From a virus (lineage: Duplodnaviria; Heunggongvirae; Uroviricota; Caudoviricetes): DNA of 10,066 bases. Below, one piece after another: positions 1 to 5,422 of this stretch (positions are counted from its first letter, which is position 1; each line of letters opens with the position of its first letter). The stretch lies in the IMG/VR virus record IMGVR_UViG_2663763227_000008, positions 1 to 10,066 of that record; one strand, given 5' to 3'. Below the pieces are notes generated by a model. That model did not search any database and was not told where the DNA came from. It saw only the letters and a list, made by a program, of their open reading frames with translations. The translations under genes were made by a program, and so were the position numbers.

Positions 1-159
1 AGCAATAAATCTCCAGTCCGTTCTGCTTATCTTCGATTCATGACAGCCAATCATCTTTGCCAGACCGCGCTGGGTAAGCGTTGACAGGTTGATGAGTAAA
101 TCAGTTTCAGCGCGATCAATTTCTCGCTGTGTTGGCTTGCTGTAGCTTGCTTGTGTCAT
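1..159 (-). CDS. cII: CII-like transcriptional activator, N-terminal 53 codons only (gene continues beyond window start)
   Basis: Minus-strand ATG at 159-157; translation MTQASYSKPTQREIDRAETDLLINLSTLTQRGLAKMIGCHESKISRTDWRFIA has an HTH-like segment. It sits immediately downstream of cro/nutR as cII does in lambda, and a TTGC-N6-TTGC site lies inside its 5' end. Not lambda cII by sequence. Confidence 0.6.
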   Translation of the reverse strand, partial: MTQASYSKPTQREIDRAETDLLINLSTLTQRGLAKMIGCHESKISRTDWRFIA

Positions 160-169
160 TTGTTAATTT
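137..169 (+). promoter_or_regulatory. PRE-like promoter: CII-type direct repeat TTGC-N6-TTGC (137-150) with candidate -10 TAATTT (164-169)
   Basis: ttgc tgtagc ttgc at 137-150 on the plus strand, inside the 5' end of the cII-like gene and pointing toward cro/cI, as PRE does in lambda; the spacing to the -10 candidate is the same as I recall for lambda PRE. Confidence 0.5.
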
Positions 170-196
170 TCCAATAGTGAATAGTTAGTTGAAAGG

Positions 197-214
197 TATG
201 CGTTGAAACGCATA
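197..214 (-). other. Perfect inverted repeat tatgcgt-tgaa-acgcata between nutR and cII (tR1-position hairpin)
   Basis: 7-bp stem with 4-nt loop seen directly; no U-run follows on the minus strand, so if it terminates it would be rho-dependent, like lambda tR1. Confidence 0.3.
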
Positions 215-243
215 TGGCCTTAGTTGGTCAGATATCTTGGGGC

Positions 244-258
244 TCGCTTTGTCAGCGA
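244..258 (-). promoter_or_regulatory. nutR boxB RNA hairpin, P22-type GACAA pentaloop
   Basis: Minus-strand sequence tcgcu-GACAA-agcga: 5-bp stem, GACAA loop, located just downstream of cro in the PR transcript. A weak boxA-like ccgttcttt lies ~22 nt upstream in the transcript. Confidence 0.6.
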
Positions 259-296
259 CGTAGGACGAATGTCCATTGTGAAAAGAACGGTGTTAC

Positions 297-506
<210 letters not shown>

Positions 507-521
507 TTAGTACATGCAACC

Positions 522-550
522 ATTATCACCGCCAGAGGTAAAATAGTCAA
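522..550 (-). promoter_or_regulatory. PR promoter (-35 TTGACT = plus 545-550; -10 GATAAT = plus 522-527)
   Basis: Reverse complement of the plus strand gives TTGACT and GATAAT with 17-bp spacing, overlapping OR2/OR1 exactly as in lambda. Confidence 0.85.
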
Positions 551-562
551 CACGCACGGTGT

Positions 563-587
<25 letters not shown>
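524..587. promoter_or_regulatory. Right operator: OR1 524-540, OR2 548-564, OR3 571-587
   Basis: Three 17-bp sites tatcaccgccagaggta / caacacgcacggtgtta / tatcccttgcggtgata, identical to the lambda OR1, OR2 and OR3 sequences as I recall them. Confidence 0.9.
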
Positions 588-1311
<724 letters not shown>

Positions 1312-1316
1312 TGAAA

Positions 1317-1343
1317 GGTCGCACAGAAGTGCGGCCTTTTTTT
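1317..1343 (+). terminator. Intrinsic terminator immediately 3' of cI
   Basis: ggtcgcac-agaa-gtgcggcc: 8-bp stem (one G-U), 4-nt loop, followed by seven T (1337-1343), starting 6 nt after the cI stop codon. Confidence 0.7.
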
Positions 1344-1441
1344 ATGATTAATATATATAAATATCAATAACATAAGCATGTTATATAGCAATTAACATAC
1401 CTATCTACAAACGAGGTATACATCAGCATTTGTTCAGTCAA

Positions 1442-1536
1442 CCTGCAAAACATCACATCTCCTGCGCATTTTTAATTCACCTGCTAATTTTACATTCTCC
1501 TGCACTTTTTTATTGCTCCTGCATCATTGTGGTGCT
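1442..1536 (+). repeat. Five tandem 19-bp direct repeats, each beginning CCTGC (iteron-like array)
   Basis: CCTGC at 1442, 1461, 1480, 1499, 1518 (exact 19-bp period). Units: cctgcaaaacatcacatct / cctgcgcatttttaattca / cctgctaattttacattct / cctgcacttttttattgct / cctgcatcattgtggtgct. Confidence 0.8.
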
Positions 1537-1543
1537 TTAATAT
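1513..1543 (+). promoter_or_regulatory. Candidate sigma70 promoter for the ParA-like gene (-35 TTGCTC 1513-1518; -10 TTTAAT/TAATAT 1536-1543)
   Basis: Hexamer-like matches at 17-19 bp spacing overlapping the last repeat unit, ~25 nt upstream of a strong SD aaaggagg (1553-1560). Pattern match only. Confidence 0.3.
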
Positions 1544-1567
1544 TCAAAATTTAAAGGAGGAATTCAT

Positions 1568-2611
1568 ATGAGCACTGTAGTTGAGTCAGTAATGGCACGC
1601 TATGCACAAGTTGTTGAGGAAGGTTACGTCGTAGATGGCGGGCCAAAATTCAAAAGTTATGCAGTTTCCAATCTGCGCGGTGGTGTTGGTAAGTCCACGA
1701 TGACATTCAACCTCGCCTATGAGCTGTCACGACGTAACTCCGTATTAGTGGCTGACTTATGCCCGCAATGTAATTTAACGGAGACACTATTGCGTGGTGA
1801 AAAACCGGTTGTAACAATAGCTAATGCACTGACACCAAAAATGCTGGGTCCAGCTTTTGGTGAGCAGCCAGAAGATATTTCATATCGAGTAAGTAATTTC
1901 TGCCCAGATTTTAAAGGTGGTAAGGCATGTTATGCGATTCCAGGTGATCCTGAGCTATTCGCTTTCCCATCAAGCATGTATCAACAACTACAAGTAGCGC
2001 TATCTCGCGGAGAACCAAAAGCAGTATCAACACTATTAAATTCTCTTCGCGCAATAATGAACGATGAAGCGAAAGACAAAAAATGCGAAATTTTATTGAT
2101 GGATACAAGCCCTTTCTATGCTGGAGGAACACACCTAGCATGGTGCGCGTCTGAGGCATTGATTATCCCTGTACGCGTAGATGAACACTCAATTGAGTCA
2201 CTTCATCTCACAATGGAAATGCTGGCAAATAAATCAAAAGATTTTGTATTATGGAATGAGCGTGCGGGTGGGCTTGGGGCTCCAAAAGTAGCAGCGATCG
2301 TAATGACAATGGCTGGTTCAAAAAGCCGTAAATCATCAACACCAGGTCGCGCATCTCAAATGTACATAGAGAGAGCTGTAAAAATCGCTGAAAAATACAG
2401 TCATCTCTTTGCCGATGAAGATGTTAGCAAAGCAATTGTGGTTACAGATGATTTTGTATCAAGCGGGCAAATTAGTGGGGCTGAAAGCATACCAATATCA
2501 CAGCTAAAAGTTGGTCGCTTCCATACAGTAAGTGAAGGGAAAAGGTTACAAGTTAACCAGTCGGTTACTCGATATCAAAGACAACTTAAGTATCTGGCAA
2601 GTATTCTTTAA
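1568..2611 (+). CDS. ParA/MinD-family P-loop ATPase-like protein (347 aa) occupying the rexAB-equivalent slot
   Basis: Strong SD aaaggagg 7 nt before the ATG. Motifs read from the translation: deviant Walker A AVSNLRGGVGKST (res 32-44), Walker A' VLVADLCPQCNLT (59-71), Walker B EILLMDTSP (174-182); ~100-aa C-terminal extension with no recognised motif. Confidence 0.85.
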   Translation: MSTVVESVMARYAQVVEEGYVVDGGPKFKSYAVSNLRGGVGKSTMTFNLAYELSRRNSVLVADLCPQCNLTETLLRGEKPVVTIANALTPKMLGPAFGEQPEDISYRVSNFCPDFKGGKACYAIPGDPELFAFPSSMYQQLQVALSRGEPKAVSTLLNSLRAIMNDEAKDKKCEILLMDTSPFYAGGTHLAWCASEALIIPVRVDEHSIESLHLTMEMLANKSKDFVLWNERAGGLGAPKVAAIVMTMAGSKSRKSSTPGRASQMYIERAVKIAEKYSHLFADEDVSKAIVVTDDFVSSGQISGAESIPISQLKVGRFHTVSEGKRLQVNQSVTRYQRQLKYLASIL

Positions 2612-2616
2612 GCAAG

Positions 2617-2644
2617 AACCCGGCCTCAGCGCCGGGTTTTCTTT
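2617..2644 (+). terminator. Intrinsic terminator 3' of the ParA-like gene
   Basis: aacccggc-ctcagc-gccgggtt: 8-bp stem, 6-nt loop, then T-rich ttttcttt; starts 6 nt after the stop codon. Confidence 0.7.
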
Positions 2645-2790
2645 GCCTAACCCCCCCAAAAAAACACATAACCAATTGTATTTATTTGAAAATTAATAGA
2701 TACAACTCACTAAACATAGCAATTCAGATCTCTCACCTACCAAACAATGCACCCCTGCAAAAAATAAATTCATATAAAAAACATACAGAT

Positions 2791-2851
2791 AACCATCTGC
2801 GGTGATGAATTATCTCTAGCGGTGTTGACATAAATACCACTAGCGGTGATA
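2791..2851. promoter_or_regulatory. Left operator: OL3 2791-2807, OL2 2811-2827, OL1 2835-2851
   Basis: aaccatctgcggtgatg / tatctctagcggtgttg / taccactagcggtgata; lambda-like 17-bp sites, each differing at one position from the lambda OL sequences as I recall them. Confidence 0.85.
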
Positions 2852-2853
2852 CT
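2825..2853 (+). promoter_or_regulatory. pL promoter (-35 TTGACA 2825-2830; -10 GATACT 2848-2853)
   Basis: ttgacataaataccactagcggtgatact, 17-bp spacing; same hexamers as lambda pL, overlapping OL2/OL1. Confidence 0.85.
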
Positions 2854-2921
2854 AAACACATCAGCAGGACGCACTACTCACCAGGTCGGTGAATATACAA
2901 CGATTCGAATATGAATCTACG

Positions 2922-2936
2922 GCGCTGACAAAGCGC
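2922..2936 (+). promoter_or_regulatory. nutL boxB RNA hairpin, P22-type GACAA pentaloop
   Basis: gcgcu-GACAA-agcgc: 5-bp stem, GACAA loop, ~65 nt downstream of the pL start and upstream of the N-like gene. No convincing boxA identified. Confidence 0.65.
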
Positions 2937-3101
2937 AATAACCAAAGTGAACTTTGGGGTGTGGTGAAGGGTTCATGGACGGGAATATGTCGCACGTAAA
3001 GCGGCGAGGCCTGCGGGACTATTGCCGAATTGAAGTAGGCCGAAACAGGTCGAAATGGGTCTCCCACCTACCACACCACCAAAGATCATCAGGAGGTCTA
3101 T

Positions 3102-3485
3102 ATGACACGCAGAACTCAGTTCAAAGGCAATTCACGTTCTCGTCGTCGTGAGCTTTTAAAGGCAAAGGCATTAGCTAACGGCGTGCTGGCCCGCGAAGAA
3201 GCAATAAGTTCAGAAGTATTACACCGCCCTACTCTAAGCAGAGCGCAGATTCAGGCTAAAGGTACTCACGAAACGCCTGAGCGCATAGAAGACGCTAAGC
3301 CAATTAAGTTCATGGCACAGGACGTGATCTGGCAACAGAAAGAATACAGACGCAATCTGGAGCGAGCGGCCATTGTGTACGCGAATGAGTTTGGACATAA
3401 GCAACCAGAAACTGGTGTATGTCTTCCAAACGTAGCCATTTACGCGGCAGGCTACCGGAAATCAAAACAACTGACGGCGAGGTGA
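3102..3485 (+). CDS. N: N-family transcription antiterminator (P22 gp24-like)
   Basis: SD aggagg before the ATG; first gene after pL/nutL. N-terminal arginine-rich motif GNSRSRRRELLKAKALA; C-terminus LPNVAIYAAGYRKSKQLTAR resembles the P22 gene 24 product C-terminus as I recall it. Confidence 0.75.
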   Translation: MTRRTQFKGNSRSRRRELLKAKALANGVLAREEAISSEVLHRPTLSRAQIQAKGTHETPERIEDAKPIKFMAQDVIWQQKEYRRNLERAAIVYANEFGHKQPETGVCLPNVAIYAAGYRKSKQLTAR

Positions 3486-3545
3486 CTTGTGTTGGTCGCC
3501 AGAAAATGAAATTAGGCAGCAAACCACTTATTTGAGGACTGATAC

Positions 3546-3788
3546 ATGAGAGTAAAAACTATGGGCGCAAGCCCATTAAGTGGTCGTATTTTTCAAGGAA
3601 CATTAAACACTGAAAAAGGAATGTGGGTGGGAAAGAAAGAAGATGTAACCGAACAGGCAGTTAAGGCAGTAGCTGAACACATGATGATAAAAGACCAGAA
3701 ATATGCATACGAAACGAAGGATGGCAAATGGCTGATAATAAGTCATCAAATAGTTGATAAATTACCAGAAGAGTTTATTGCTGATTAA
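3546..3788 (+). CDS. Hypothetical early protein (80 aa)
   Basis: ORF with SD gagga 8 nt upstream; first gene after N, where lambdoid phages carry small host-interaction genes; no recognisable motif. Confidence 0.5.
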   Translation: MRVKTMGASPLSGRIFQGTLNTEKGMWVGKKEDVTEQAVKAVAEHMMIKDQKYAYETKDGKWLIISHQIVDKLPEEFIAD

Positions 3789-3826
3789 AATTATTTTGGC
3801 ATAAACAACAGAATAAACACTGCACT

Positions 3827-3854
3827 GTGTATTCATTCCAACGAGTGAATACAC
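3827..3854 (+). other. 12-bp inverted repeat / RNA hairpin gtgtattcattc-caac-gagtgaatacac
   Basis: Seen directly: 12-bp stem (one G-U), 4-nt loop, no U-run; in the intergenic gap after the 80-aa ORF. Confidence 0.5.
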
Positions 3855-3916
3855 GGAGCAATGTCGCTCGTAACTAAACAGGAGCCGACTTGTTCTGATT
3901 ATTGGAAATCTTCTTT

Positions 3917-3942
3917 GCCCTCCAGTGTGAGGGCCTTTTTAT
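3917..3942 (+). terminator. Intrinsic terminator (tL1-like position)
   Basis: gccctc-cagtgt-gagggc stem-loop followed by ctttttat; lies inside the pL operon, so it would be N-suppressible. Confidence 0.6.
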
Positions 3943-4006
3943 ATGCATACCAATAACGCTTCACTTGAGGCGTTTTCGTTATGCAATCAAACAGAAGGAG
4001 CATCCT

Positions 4007-4177
4007 ATGCAACAGTTCGCTATTGCAGGGGCGGCATCGGTTCGCCCTTTCAACCCGATTTTATCGGTACAGCATTCACGAAAAAACATTTTAACCGGAG
4101 CAGACTTTAAACAACCAAGAATGAAAAGTTTGCTCGAAAAGCTTTGGGATATTTTGAAACAACAAGGCCGTCCATGA
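4007..4177 (+). CDS. cIII: CIII-like small protein (56 aa)
   Basis: SD aggag before the ATG at 4007. MQQFAIAG... N-terminus and SLLEKLWDILKQQG segment resemble lambda CIII (MQYAIAG...; ...WKRLIDILNQPG) from memory. The longer TTG-initiated frame from 3902 is rejected because it runs through the terminator hairpin. Confidence 0.5.
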   Translation: MQQFAIAGAASVRPFNPILSVQHSRKNILTGADFKQPRMKSLLEKLWDILKQQGRP

Positions 4178-4332
4178 GTTTTACAGATAACTGGTCAGAC
4201 GAAGAATTCATTCGTCAGATGAAAGAATTAATCGGTAACGAAGGAGATATTCATGTCACTTGCAACCACAGTGAAGGAGAGCAAGTTACAGAGACGCATG
4301 TACACGCAGAAAGCTCTCTGGTATCGCCATAA
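4174..4332 (+). CDS. Hypothetical small acidic protein (52 aa)
   Basis: ATG overlaps the upstream stop (ATGA) suggesting translational coupling; translation MSFTDNWSDEEFIRQMKELIGNEGDIH...; no recognisable motif. Confidence 0.4.
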   Translation: MSFTDNWSDEEFIRQMKELIGNEGDIHVTCNHSEGEQVTETHVHAESSLVSP

Positions 4333-4433
4333 TGGCGACCGCGAAGGAATGCGGGTATGCCTTAATTTGTCCCGAGTCGAAGTATTAAATCAGCGTTATT
4401 TCCTTGGGCCATGTCCATTCTGAGAACAAACAT

Positions 4434-5039
4434 ATGAGCAAAGAATTTTACGCAAGACTGGCAGCTATTCAGGAGAATCTGAACGCGCCAAAAAATCAGT
4501 ACAACTCATTCGGTAAATATAAATACAGAAGCTGCGAAGACATTCTTGAAGGCGTTAAGCCGTTACTGAATGGCCTGTTTTTATCAATCAGCGATGAAGT
4601 TGTGTTGATTGGTGATCGGTATTACGTGAAAGCCACGGCAACTATTACCGATGGCGAAAACAGTCATACGGCAACCGCTCTTGCACGAGAGGAAGAAAGC
4701 AAGAAAGGAATGGATTCTGCACAAGTTACGGGAGCTACAAGCTCTTATGCACGCAAGTATTGCCTCAATGGTTTGTTCGGCATTGATGATGCGAAAGATG
4801 CAGATACAGACGAGCATAAACATCAGCAGAACGCAGCAGCAAAGCAATCAAAACCATCACCTACACCTGAACAGGTTCTAAAAGCATTCACTGACGCAGC
4901 AATGCAGAAAAACACCGTGGAAGAGCTTAAACAGGCGTTCGCCAAAGCGTGGAAGATGCTCGAAGGCACACCGGAGCAGCACAAAGCGCAGGACGTTTAC
5001 AACATCAGACGAGACGAATTAGAAGGAGCGGCTGCTTAA
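4434..5039 (+). CDS. erf: Erf-family single-strand annealing recombinase (P22 Erf-like)
   Basis: Translation MSKEFYARLAAIQENLNAPKNQYNSFGKYKYRSCEDILEGVKPLLNGLFLSISDEVVLIGDRYYVKATATITDGENSH... closely resembles P22 Erf as I recall it; ATG 4434 preferred over the upstream TTG at 4404. Confidence 0.8.
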   Translation: MSKEFYARLAAIQENLNAPKNQYNSFGKYKYRSCEDILEGVKPLLNGLFLSISDEVVLIGDRYYVKATATITDGENSHTATALAREEESKKGMDSAQVTGATSSYARKYCLNGLFGIDDAKDADTDEHKHQQNAAAKQSKPSPTPEQVLKAFTDAAMQKNTVEELKQAFAKAWKMLEGTPEQHKAQDVYNIRRDELEGAAA

Positions 5040-5422
5040 TGGCACATTCGATTACTGTAAGACTAAACAAGCCCGCAAGAGAGTTTCAGGCCGGGGAAAA
5101 TATCGGATTCAACATCCGTGCTGGCGTTCAGTATTACGATCGCCAGACAAAAAAGAAAGAATGGACAAACTACAGCGCCGTTGTATTTGCCAAGCCGGGA
5201 GCGCAAGCGGATTACTACCGTAGTGTTCTTGTTGAAGGTGGCATTGTAGAAATTACCGGAGAAAACATCAGGGTTGATGTTTATCAGGGGCAAAATGGTC
5301 AATCAATCACTCTTGAATTACTGAATGCAAAGATTGGATTTGCAACTTCAGGAAACAGCCAACAGCAGCAAAGTAGCAATCATCAAAATCATCCTGAATA
5401 CGACGATTCAATTCCATTCTAA
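5039..5422 (+). CDS. Putative single-stranded DNA-binding protein (OB-fold-like), coupled to erf
   Basis: Start overlaps the erf stop (TAATG) with SD aggag upstream. 127 aa with an SSB-like pattern (KEWTNYSAVVFAKPGAQADYYRSVLVEGGIVEITGENIRVDVY) and a Q/S-rich acidic tail ending DDSIPF, reminiscent of the SSB C-terminal tip. Confidence 0.55.
   Translation: MAHSITVRLNKPAREFQAGENIGFNIRAGVQYYDRQTKKKEWTNYSAVVFAKPGAQADYYRSVLVEGGIVEITGENIRVDVYQGQNGQSITLELLNAKIGFATSGNSQQQQSSNHQNHPEYDDSIPF

What the first reader, a model, noticed from the sequence alone, without database searches (positions are those of the whole stretch)
1317..2644. Intrinsic terminators on both sides insulate the insert from PRM/cI and from pL
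A strong stem-loop plus T7 (1317-1343) lies 6 nt after the cI stop, and a second GC stem plus T-run (2617-2644) lies 6 nt after the ParA-like stop. In lambda, rexAB are co-transcribed with cI from PRM/PRE; here the geometry implies the inserted gene is driven mainly by its own promoter rather than by repressor-promoter readthrough, a typical moron arrangement. It also means cI expression is uncoupled from the downstream gene.
Basis: partly seen in the sequence, partly recalled or inferred. Interest (0 to 1): 0.35.

Follow-up and report, generated by a model that had tools for sequence, protein, structure and literature searches.

The report
Two terminators bracket a prophage cargo gene
In this lambda-immunity prophage, the single gene that replaces rexAB sits between two conserved transcription-terminator hairpins and has its own conserved promoter, an ordinary "moron" layout whose right-hand terminator is lambda's already known T_IMM.

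Summary
Both hairpins exist where stated. Hairpin 2 (2617-2644) has the same stem and loop as lambda T_IMM, the known terminator of PRM/PLIT transcripts. It is present in every lambda-immunity phage compared except HK97, where my scans did not find it, so it is a backbone junction element and not a feature of this insert. It stops read-through into oL/pL/N; pL fires away from the insert, so nothing is "insulated from pL".

Hairpin 1 (1314-1343, U7) is absent from lambda, HK97, HK544, HK542, CL707 and mEp332. In five of those six the cargo follows cI after 22-122 nt with no terminator. Hairpin 1 belongs to a widespread family: at least 119 viral contigs, following at least six repressor families and preceding about eight cargo types. 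In 46 of 53 loci it is paired with a T_IMM-like hairpin 0.5-1.8 kb downstream.

The ParA-like gene has a promoter whose layout (-35, 17 bp, TGn, -10) is conserved across several phyla. Five CCTGC repeats at exactly 19-bp spacing overlap it.

Hairpin 1 starts 2 nt after the cI stop codon, so ribosomes may weaken it.

This is a known kind of arrangement and of low interest. The ParA-like gene with its repeat array is the more intriguing by-product.

The parts
563..591 (+). PRM promoter (-35 TAGATA 563-568, -10 TAGATT 586-591). The cI mRNA is leaderless and starts at the ATG at 598. Included as context: this is the source of the transcripts that meet hairpin 1.
   Evidence: Sequence read. Same positions are annotated pRM in the homologous record EF120459, which aligns base for base with the window.
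598..1311 (+). cI repressor gene of lambda immunity (237 aa, HTH_3 + Peptidase_S24).
   Evidence: About 98% nucleotide identity to lambda cI up to the stop codon, where homology ends.
1314..1343 (+). Hairpin 1, the post-repressor intrinsic terminator: stem 1314-1324 / 1329-1339, loop AGAA 1325-1328, U7 at 1337-1343.
   Evidence: Absent from lambda, HK97, HK544, HK542, CL707 and mEp332. Conserved after other repressors and before other cargoes.
1344..1441 (.). AT-rich spacer (the whole 1312-1567 intergenic region is 33% G+C). It is specific to the E. coli version of the cassette and has no assigned function.
   Evidence: this stretch is not shared with the Pantoea, Pseudescherichia or IMG/VR versions.
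1442..1522 (+). Array of five direct CCTGC(A) repeats at exactly 19-bp spacing (1442, 1461, 1480, 1499, 1518). The last repeat overlaps the -35 hexamer and spacer. Presumed operator or centromere-like array.
   Evidence: 0 of 1000 shuffles reach 5 sites in 90 nt. CCTGC arrays at 9/19/28-bp spacing lie upstream of homologues in nine other lineages.
1513..1541 (+). Putative sigma-70 promoter of the ParA-like gene: -35 TTGCTC 1513-1518, 17-bp spacer, extended -10 TG 1533-1534, -10 TTTAAT 1536-1541. Predicted start near 1548.
   Evidence: Read. The layout TTG(C/A)(T/A)C, 17 bp, TGn, hexamer is kept in Pantoea, Franconibacter, Pseudescherichia, Pseudomonas, Chromobacterium, Cupriavidus, Verrucomicrobia and Acidobacteria. 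It falls below the threshold of the consensus scan and lacks the usual A at -11.
1554..1560 (+). Shine-Dalgarno sequence AAGGAGG, 7 nt before the ATG.
1568..2611 (+). ParA/Soj/MinD-fold P-loop ATPase gene (347 aa), the single cargo gene. Its Walker A motif is RGGVGKS.
   Evidence: Pfam AAA_31/CbiA. AlphaFold model with pLDDT 89, closest to Soj and McdA. Homologues more than 60% identical across phyla. Arg37 invariant. No significant PADLOC hit.
2617..2644 (+). Hairpin 2, which is lambda T_IMM: stem 2617-2624 / 2631-2638, loop CTCAGC, tail TTTTCTTT.
   Evidence: Same stem and loop as the lambda sequence after rexB. Homology to lambda-immunity phages resumes at 2608-2621. Annotated Timm in EF120455/56/58/59. 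Function stated in bioRxiv 10.1101/2021.04.19.439022.
2825..2853 (+). pL (TTGACA, 17 bp, GATACT) with the oL operators. It fires rightward in this window, away from the insert. Included as context.
   Evidence: Homologous annotation.

Best explanation
The interval between cI and oL/pL is a cargo slot closed on both sides by intrinsic terminators. RNA polymerase starting at PRM (lysogen) or PRE (establishment) transcribes cI and meets hairpin 1 (1314-1336 plus U7) 2-5 nt after the stop codon. Most transcripts end there, giving a monocistronic cI mRNA with a protective 3' hairpin. The ParA-like gene is then transcribed from its own sigma-70 promoter (-35 at 1513-1518, extended -10 at 1533-1541). 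That promoter is overlapped by the last of five 19-bp-phased CCTGC repeats, which probably bind a regulator, possibly the ATPase itself. Its transcript, and any read-through, ends at T_IMM (2617-2644), which keeps lysogenic transcription out of oL/pL and N. Shown here: the hairpins, their conservation, the homology break-points, and the conserved promoter layout and repeat array. Inferred: actual termination and its efficiency, promoter activity, and who binds the repeats. In evolutionary terms both hairpins are shared junction elements at which lambdoid phages swap cargo. Here the block cI C-terminal domain, hairpin 1, ParA gene and T_IMM has moved as a unit between immunity types.
For: Hairpin shapes and energies. 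Homology to lambda, HK97, HK544, HK542, CL707 and mEp332 stops at the cI stop codon and resumes at the start of hairpin 2. Five of those six phages have 22-122 nt gaps after cI (HK97 has 425 nt), and none has a canonical terminator there. Hairpin 1 recurs with an invariant core stem, a T-run of at least 4, and a variable, mostly GNRA loop behind at least six S24/HTH repressor families and in front of ParA-like, a second ParA-like family, P63C, Bro-N, SocA and unknown cargoes. The same hairpin follows cI in ST131 prophages carrying a P63C cargo. In 46 of 53 loci of the 4-nt-loop class with enough sequence, a T_IMM-like hairpin lies 0.5-1.8 kb downstream on the same strand. T_IMM identity and literature. 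Promoter layout and CCTGC array conserved from E. coli to Verrucomicrobia, Acidobacteria and Myxococcota. Block transfer into a heteroimmune prophage at 99% identity over window positions 901-2740.
Against: There are no 5' or 3' end data for this prophage. By energy alone such hairpins are not rare in shuffled sequence. The stems show no compensatory changes because they are invariant in sequence, so conservation could reflect DNA-level constraints. Hairpin 1 starts 2-5 nt, and T_IMM about 6 nt, after a translated stop codon, and a terminator that close was almost fully repressed in vivo in a reporter system (PMC4824070). Against that caveat, lambda's accepted T_IMM overlaps the rexB stop codon, and PRM-derived cI mRNA is leaderless, so it is expected to carry few ribosomes (my knowledge). 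The -10 hexamer TTTAAT lacks the near-universal A at -11 and the -35 matches only 3 of 6 positions, so the promoter call rests on the extended -10 and on conservation. One E. coli variant (L008) has a mismatch in the stem.
Confidence: 0.65

Rival explanations
1. Leaky or conditional terminator. Because hairpin 1 abuts the cI stop codon, a ribosome finishing cI masks its 5' arm, so a sizeable fraction of transcripts read through. This would apply especially to the efficiently translated PRE transcripts made during establishment. The ParA-like gene would then have dual control, from PRM/PRE read-through plus its own promoter, as lambda rexB has PRM plus PLIT.
For: The stem begins 2-5 nt after the TGA. 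Reporter data show near-complete repression of terminator tR2 at short stop-to-terminator distances, with full efficiency only beyond about 30 bp. Lambda precedent for two-promoter control of rexB.
Against: In other phages the same hairpin sits 14-95 nt from the upstream stop codon, so proximity is not a conserved feature. Lambda T_IMM overlaps the rexB stop codon and is still treated as the operon terminator. The hairpin is strong (-17.5 to -21 kcal/mol, U7).
Confidence: 0.22
2. The hairpins are conserved mainly as DNA-level recombination joints (boundary sequences) at which lambdoid phages exchange modules. Their terminator-like shape would then have little effect on transcription.
For: Homology break-points fall exactly at both hairpins. 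Each hairpin is shared among many unrelated cargoes and repressors. No compensatory base changes.
Against: The loops vary while the stems and T-runs are kept, and loops are mostly GNRA tetraloops (GAGA 24, GAAA 23), which points to selection on an RNA hairpin. Orientation is always sense to the repressor gene. T_IMM is accepted in the literature as the terminator of PRM and PLIT transcripts. Both roles can coexist.
Confidence: 0.1
3. Chance stem-loops next to T-runs with no function.
For: 14% and 49% of shuffled windows contain a site of equal energy.
Against: Both sit on the coding strand directly after consecutive stop codons. Both are conserved in dozens to hundreds of phage sequences while their flanks diverge.
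Confidence: 0.02

Closest known systems
Lambda T_IMM (called tRM in Stx phage annotations), the intrinsic terminator of the cI-rexA-rexB operon
   Same: Hairpin 2 has the same stem, loop and T-tract as lambda's sequence, sits at the same place just upstream of oL3/pL, and directly follows the last gene of the slot.
   Different: None in sequence. Here it ends a transcript that probably starts at the cargo's own promoter, and not the PRM operon transcript.
Lambda cI-rexA-rexB operon, with the internal promoter PLIT
   Same: Same slot between cI and pL, occupied by lysogen-expressed accessory genes. A second promoter serves the distal gene.
   Different: Lambda has no terminator between cI and rexA, so rexA is obligatorily co-transcribed with cI. 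Here a strong terminator separates cI from the cargo.
Morons of lambdoid phages (Juhala et al. 2000; definition quoted in PMC4378225)
   Same: A single coding region with an upstream promoter and a downstream terminator, present in some and absent from other closely related phages.
   Different: It replaces alternative cargoes at a fixed slot and is not a pure insertion between adjacent genes. Its G+C content (42.7%) is not distinct from its neighbours. The flanking terminators are shared slot elements and are not cargo-specific.
BstA and other defence genes downstream of prophage repressors (PMC8585504)
   Same: Same genomic position. BstA-, KilA-N-, P63C- and NYN-domain genes occupy the same slot in other lambda-immunity prophages. 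BstA also has its own Rho-independent terminator.
   Different: bstA is described as presumably sharing the repressor's promoter. The cargo here is a ParA-fold ATPase with no match to known defence models.
Type Ib partition loci and pSM19035 delta/omega, in which arrays of short direct repeats upstream of a parA-type gene act as both centromere and operator (from my own knowledge)
   Same: A small ParA-fold ATPase preceded by phased short direct repeats that overlap its promoter.
   Different: No parB or omega-like gene lies in the cassette. The prophage is integrated. The Walker A signature Lys is replaced by Arg. Binding of the repeats has not been tested.

Membership tests
Intrinsic (Rho-independent) terminator | G+C-rich stem-loop immediately followed by a U-tract on the transcribed strand | tested here: met
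   Hairpin 1: 8 core pairs (6 G-C) plus 3 A-U pairs, then U7. Hairpin 2: 8 pairs (6 G-C), then UUUUCUUU.
Intrinsic (Rho-independent) terminator | Located downstream of a gene end, in the sense orientation | tested here: met
   The stems begin 2-5 nt and about 6 nt after the cI and ParA-like stop codons, on the + strand.
Intrinsic (Rho-independent) terminator | RNA 3' ends at the U-tract; hairpin-dependent release of RNA polymerase | not testable with these tools
   No transcript data are available. For the T_IMM sequence, function is asserted in the lambda literature.
Intrinsic (Rho-independent) terminator | Structure maintained in evolution (compensatory changes) | tested here: inconclusive
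   The stems are invariant in sequence: 92.5% of cells paired, 0 double changes. Loops vary while stems and T-runs are kept.
Lambda T_IMM | Sequence homology to the lambda element after rexB | tested here: met
   AACCCGGCCTCAGCGCCGGGTTTTCTTTGCCT is identical in lambda and in the window. BLAST homology resumes at 2614.
Lambda T_IMM | Position between the last gene of the cI-distal slot and oL3/pL | tested here: met
   2617-2644, with pL at 2825-2853. Same layout in the annotated records.
Moron | Single coding region with its own promoter upstream | tested here: inconclusive
   One ORF. Promoter predicted and its layout is phylogenetically conserved, but the hexamers are weak and activity is untested.
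Moron | Terminator downstream | tested here: met
   T_IMM at 2617-2644.
Moron | Present in some and absent from other closely related phages at the same point | tested here: met
   5 of 5426 complete E. coli genomes carry it. Hundreds of others have the same flanks with different cargo.
Moron | Base composition different from neighbouring genes | tested here: not met
   ParA-like gene 42.7% G+C, cI 45.2%, whole window 45.2%. Only the intergenic leader is AT-rich (32.8%).
ParA/Soj/MinD ATPases | P-loop NTPase fold of the Soj/MinD type | tested here: met
   Model pLDDT 89. Foldseek hits to Soj, McdA and ParA at E about 1e-10, TM (target-normalised) 0.75. Pfam AAA_31/CbiA.
ParA/Soj/MinD ATPases | Deviant Walker A motif KGGxxK[ST] with the signature N-terminal lysine | tested here: not met
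   The motif is RGGVGKS. Arg37 is invariant in 38 homologues.
Plasmid or chromosome partition system (parABS) | Adjacent parB/adaptor gene and a centromere | tested here: not met
   No second gene lies between 1312 and 2825. A repeat array exists but no ParB-like partner was found. NCBIfam partition models score far below their cut-offs.
Known anti-phage defence systems (PADLOC) | Significant match to a defence-system protein model | tested here: not met
   Only PDC-M28B at E = 0.0011 over 36 residues of the P-loop.

The most novel reading that the evidence does not exclude
In many heteroimmune lambdoid phages the region between the repressor gene and pL is a standardised, terminator-bracketed 'socket': the hairpin-1 family on the left and T_IMM on the right. 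Self-promoted single-gene cargoes are swapped into it by recombination at the hairpins. In this window the socket holds an orphan ParA-fold ATPase whose promoter-overlapping array of 19-bp-phased CCTGC repeats has co-travelled with it across at least five phyla. That would make it a previously undescribed, self-regulated, sequence-specific DNA-binding ATPase module. Given its position at a known prophage defence hotspot, it plausibly acts in superinfection exclusion or defence. A second, 24%-identical ParA-like family with its own different repeats sits in the same socket.
Probability: 0.3. Interest if true: 0.6.

Novelty: new member of a known kind. Interest (0 to 1): 0.3.

Why it matters
For the terminators themselves the interest is modest. 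They show that, unlike lambda's rexAB, some cargo genes next to cI are transcriptionally separated from the repressor. This matters when expression of prophage accessory or defence genes is inferred from PRM activity. It also identifies a reusable pair of junction terminators that marks where cargo is exchanged. The larger potential value is in the by-product: a tightly conserved orphan ParA-like ATPase with a conserved repeat array, sitting in a slot known to hold abortive-infection and defence genes. It is a concrete candidate for functional testing.

Tried and rejected
- Rfam at permissive thresholds over 1-3600 gave only chance-level minus-strand sRNA hits (E 0.6-0.9, far below gathering scores), so no known RNA family is involved.
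- PADLOC gave no meaningful defence match. NCBIfam and PHROGs gave only generic ParA labels.
- An energy-only shuffle test was not decisive. A covariation test on T_IMM was uninformative because the stem never varies.
- The genome-contig scan returned only two loci.
- A full-text search for the protein accession found nothing. Degnan et al. 2007, the key paper on lambda-immunity regions, is not held.
- I tried to use the phi24B lysogen qPCR data, in which genes downstream of cI are 10 to 100,000 times more abundant than cI (PMC3342100), as experimental support. However, phi24B has a 933W-type operonic slot, so the data do not transfer. It did show that its annotated 'tRM' is sequence-identical to T_IMM.
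- A minus-strand sRNA ending at hairpin 1 was considered and dropped: only UUU follows the stem on that strand and no credible promoter was seen by eye.
- About 52 of the 119 pattern matches (the 5-6-nt loop class, for example AAAGGTCGCATATCTATGCGGCC) are a different element in other contexts and were excluded from the slot statistics.
Full report
**What the window is.** The window is the immunity region of a lambdoid prophage, drawn inverted relative to the lambda map.
- cro lies at 297-497 (-), oR/PR/PRM at about 520-597, and cI at 598-1311 (+).
- A 347-aa ParA-like gene lies at 1568-2611 (+), oL/pL at 2825-2853 (+), and an N gene at 3102-3485 (+).
- cI and cro are about 98% identical to lambda's.
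- An E. coli chromosome (LR883012) holds the 1200-2900 segment at 99.7% identity inside a complete lambdoid prophage.

**Observation.**
- Hairpin 1 is GGTCGCAC-AGAA-GTGCGGCC (1317-1336). It is extendable by three A-U pairs from 1314 and is followed by T7 (1337-1343). The cI stop codon is at 1309-1311.
- Hairpin 1 is the best terminator-like site of the window in the consensus scan. It folds at -21 kcal/mol, z = -5.7.
- Hairpin 2 is AACCCGGC-CTCAGC-GCCGGGTT (2617-2638) followed by TTCTTT. The ParA-like stop codon is at 2609-2611. It folds at -19 kcal/mol, z = -3.4.
- In my own scan the two are the strongest plus-strand stop-codon-proximal sites.
- By energy alone they are not beyond chance in 10 kb of two strands: 14% and 49% of shuffles give an equal site. 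The argument therefore rests on position and conservation.

**Hairpin 2 is lambda T_IMM.**
- BLAST of the window against lambda, HK97, HK544, HK542, CL707 and mEp332 shows homology ending at the cI stop codon (1307-1322) and resuming at 2608-2621, the first bases of hairpin 2.
- The stem, loop and T-tract are the same as the lambda sequence that follows rexB.
- The GenBank records of the Little-laboratory immunity regions annotate this element as 'Timm ... terminator of transcripts initiated at pRM, pRE and pLit'.
- The heteroimmune Stx phage phi24B carries the identical sequence, annotated tRM.
- Across 15 versions the stem is invariant and the loop varies, with no compensatory changes.
- Hairpin 2 is therefore a backbone junction element common to many cargoes. 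My scans did not find it in HK97. Because pL lies downstream and fires away from the insert, its role is to stop lysogenic transcription from running into oL/pL/N, and not to protect the insert from pL.

**Hairpin 1 is not in lambda but is not insert-specific either.**
- Lambda, HK544, HK542, CL707 and mEp332 have 22-122 nt between cI and the first cargo gene and no terminator-like site there. HK97 has a 425-nt gap without a canonical one. Those cargoes are built to be co-transcribed with cI, as rexAB is.
- The ParA cassette, and a P63C-domain cassette in ST131 prophages, instead have gaps of about 250 nt that open with the same hairpin.
- A pattern scan found the core GGTCGCA-N4-6-TGCGGCCTTTT in at least 119 viral contigs.
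- In the class with 4-nt loops (GAGA 24, GAAA 23, GAGG 12 and others) it follows at least six different HTH/Peptidase_S24 repressor families at 5-95 nt.
- In that class it precedes this ParA-like family, a second ParA-like family, three P63C groups, a Bro-N protein, a SocA/Panacea protein and the 172-aa orf22 family of VT2-Sakai.
- In 46 of the 53 such loci with at least 2 kb of downstream sequence, a T_IMM-like hairpin lies 0.5-1.8 kb further on the same strand.
- The two hairpins thus bracket a one-gene slot in many heteroimmune phages.
- Conservation of stem and T-run with a freely varying, mostly GNRA loop argues for selection on an RNA hairpin. The coincidence with homology break-points argues that the hairpins also serve as recombination joints.
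- In one E. coli prophage with a different repressor N-terminal domain, the block from the cI C-terminal domain through hairpin 1, the ParA gene and T_IMM is 99% identical to the window (positions 901-2740), so it moved as a unit.

**The cargo has its own promoter.**
- Upstream of the ATG are AAGGAGG (1554-1560) and a promoter-like arrangement: TTGCTC (1513-1518), 17 bp, TGc, TTTAAT (1536-1541).
- The hexamers are weak. The -35 matches 3 of 6 positions and there is no A at -11, so the scan does not list it.
- The layout TTG(C/A)(T/A)C, 17 bp, TGn, hexamer is nevertheless kept upstream of homologues in Pantoea, Franconibacter, Pseudescherichia, Pseudomonas, Chromobacterium, Cupriavidus, Verrucomicrobia and Acidobacteria, while the surrounding sequence is unrelated. 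In most of the non-enteric homologues the -10 is a better hexamer (TATGCT, TAAAAT, TATCTT).
- Overlapping and preceding it are five CCTGC motifs at exactly 19-bp spacing (1442-1518). No shuffle out of 1000 reaches five in 90 nt.
- Arrays of the same motif at 9, 19 or 28-bp spacing accompany every homologue examined, including Sorangium.

**Mechanism proposed.**
- PRM or PRE transcripts end at hairpin 1, giving monocistronic cI.
- The ParA-like gene is expressed from its own promoter under control of whatever binds the CCTGC array.
- T_IMM ends that transcript and any read-through.
- The main caveat is position. Li et al. (PMC4824070) found a Rho-independent terminator almost fully repressed in vivo when placed about 8-9 bp (the shortest distances tested) after a translated stop codon, reaching full efficiency only beyond about 30 bp.
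- Hairpin 1 begins 2-5 nt after the cI stop codon. Lambda's T_IMM overlaps the rexB stop codon yet is the accepted operon terminator. PRM-derived cI mRNA is leaderless, so it is expected to carry few ribosomes (my knowledge).
- Read-through could still be appreciable, particularly for PRE transcripts. I give the clean-insulation model 0.65, a leaky dual-control model 0.22, a junction-only role 0.10 and chance 0.02.

**What the cargo is.**
- The protein has the Soj/MinD fold (model pLDDT 89; Soj and McdA are the top hits) with extra helical insertions and a conserved C-terminal extension.
- Its Walker A motif is RGGVGKS, with an invariant Arg where ParA/MinD proteins have the signature Lys.
- The family is unusually tight. 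Members are more than 60% identical from E. coli to Verrucomicrobia, Acidobacteria and Myxococcota, and only 35 clusters at 50% identity reach E <= 1e-30 among 1.8 billion representatives.
- In Enterobacterales (other than Franconibacter), Pseudomonas and Chromobacterium it sits in prophage early regions; in Pantoea and Pseudomonas it is directly downstream of an S24 repressor.
- In Verrucomicrobia and Acidobacteria it is paired divergently with an IS1-like DDE protein.
- It matches no known defence model, and no parB-like partner is present.
- Other lambda-immunity prophages carry BstA-, KilA-N-, P63C-, NYN- or DUF2335-domain genes in the same slot. The BstA paper calls the slot a hotspot of mosaic diversity shared with the RexAB abortive-infection system.
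- A role in exclusion or defence is therefore plausible but untested.

**Comparison and novelty.**
- The arrangement fits the published definition of a moron: a single coding region flanked by promoter and terminator, present or absent among relatives (PMC4378225). Its base composition, however, is not distinctive.
- T_IMM is already known.
- The post-repressor terminator family and the terminator-bracketed slot are, as far as I could find, not described as such. They are nonetheless instances of well-known principles, and a similar hairpin is annotated 'putative weak rho-independent terminator' after the N-like gene in phage epsilon34.
- I therefore rate the finding as a new member of a known kind, of low to moderate interest (0.3). 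The ParA-like gene with its CCTGC array is the lead most worth following.

Noticed in passing
window 1442-1522 (also L018, L020, L022, L027, L034, L035, L036, L160, L162, L163 upstream of the ParA-like gene): Five CCTGC(A) repeats at exactly 19-bp spacing, the last overlapping the -35 hexamer. Arrays of the same motif at 9/19/28-bp spacing lie upstream of every homologue examined, from Enterobacterales to Pseudomonas, Chromobacterium, Cupriavidus, Sorangium, Verrucomicrobia and Acidobacteria. The binding protein is unknown and no parB-like gene is present.
   Followed up: partly
window 1568-2611: The ParA-fold ATPase has RGGVGKS in place of the deviant Walker A KGGxxKS, with Arg37 invariant in 38 homologues. 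The family is more than 60% identical across phyla and almost collapses into one 50%-identity cluster (35 clusters at E <= 1e-30).
   Followed up: partly
L057, L076, L090, L118 (IMG/VR contigs), about 100-140 nt downstream of hairpin 1: A second ParA-like family (about 340 aa, 24% identical over the full length) occupies the same hairpin-1 to T_IMM slot. It has its own, different upstream repeats (GGTAAACnnTTTACC and GACATCGTTAACC).
   Followed up: partly
L160 1988-2866, L161 2024-2914, L162 2039-2869: In Verrucomicrobia and Acidobacteria the ParA-like gene is divergently adjacent to a conserved protein of about 280 aa with faint IS1-type DDE transposase similarity. This hints that the gene travels with a transposable element outside phages.
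   Followed up: no
L020/L021 (Franconibacter) 3700-5100: The ParA cassette lies between an integrase gene and tail-fibre genes. It is flanked on the left by a copy of the lambda post-cI boundary sequence (GGCAAGGTCTTCTGGTCAGCGCATAG) in place of hairpin 1, and on the right by a T_IMM-like hairpin. It looks like a transplanted piece of an immunity region.
   Followed up: no
L009 3334-5173 versus window 901-2740: A heteroimmune prophage, whose repressor has a different N-terminal DNA-binding domain, shares 99% nucleotide identity from the cI C-terminal domain through hairpin 1, the ParA gene and T_IMM. The recombination points lie inside cI and about 100 nt beyond T_IMM.
   Followed up: yes
window 3482-3548: Directly after the stop codon of this window's HK97-type N gene lies a 55-67-nt copy (93-100% identical) of the 3' end of the N gene of HK544, HK542 and CL707, ending in its own TGA at 3534-3536. 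It is a mosaic scar at a module joint.
   Followed up: partly
window 2651-2664: A C7A7 homopolymer run just after T_IMM varies in length among otherwise near-identical prophages (C6-C8, A7-A8). Lambda has CCCCCAAAA here.
   Followed up: no
L159 (VT2-Sakai) 2501-2532; L158 (epsilon34) 2502-2525: The hairpin-1 family is present in well-known phages. In VT2-Sakai and many Stx phages it lies 370 nt after cI, just before orf22. In epsilon34 a similar hairpin follows the N-like gene and is annotated as a putative weak terminator.
   Followed up: partly
window 1344-1441: A very AT-rich stretch (the intergenic region is 33% G+C) with several short palindromes. It is found only in the E. coli version of the cassette and its function is unknown; an UP-element-like or H-NS-binding role is conceivable.
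   Followed up: no
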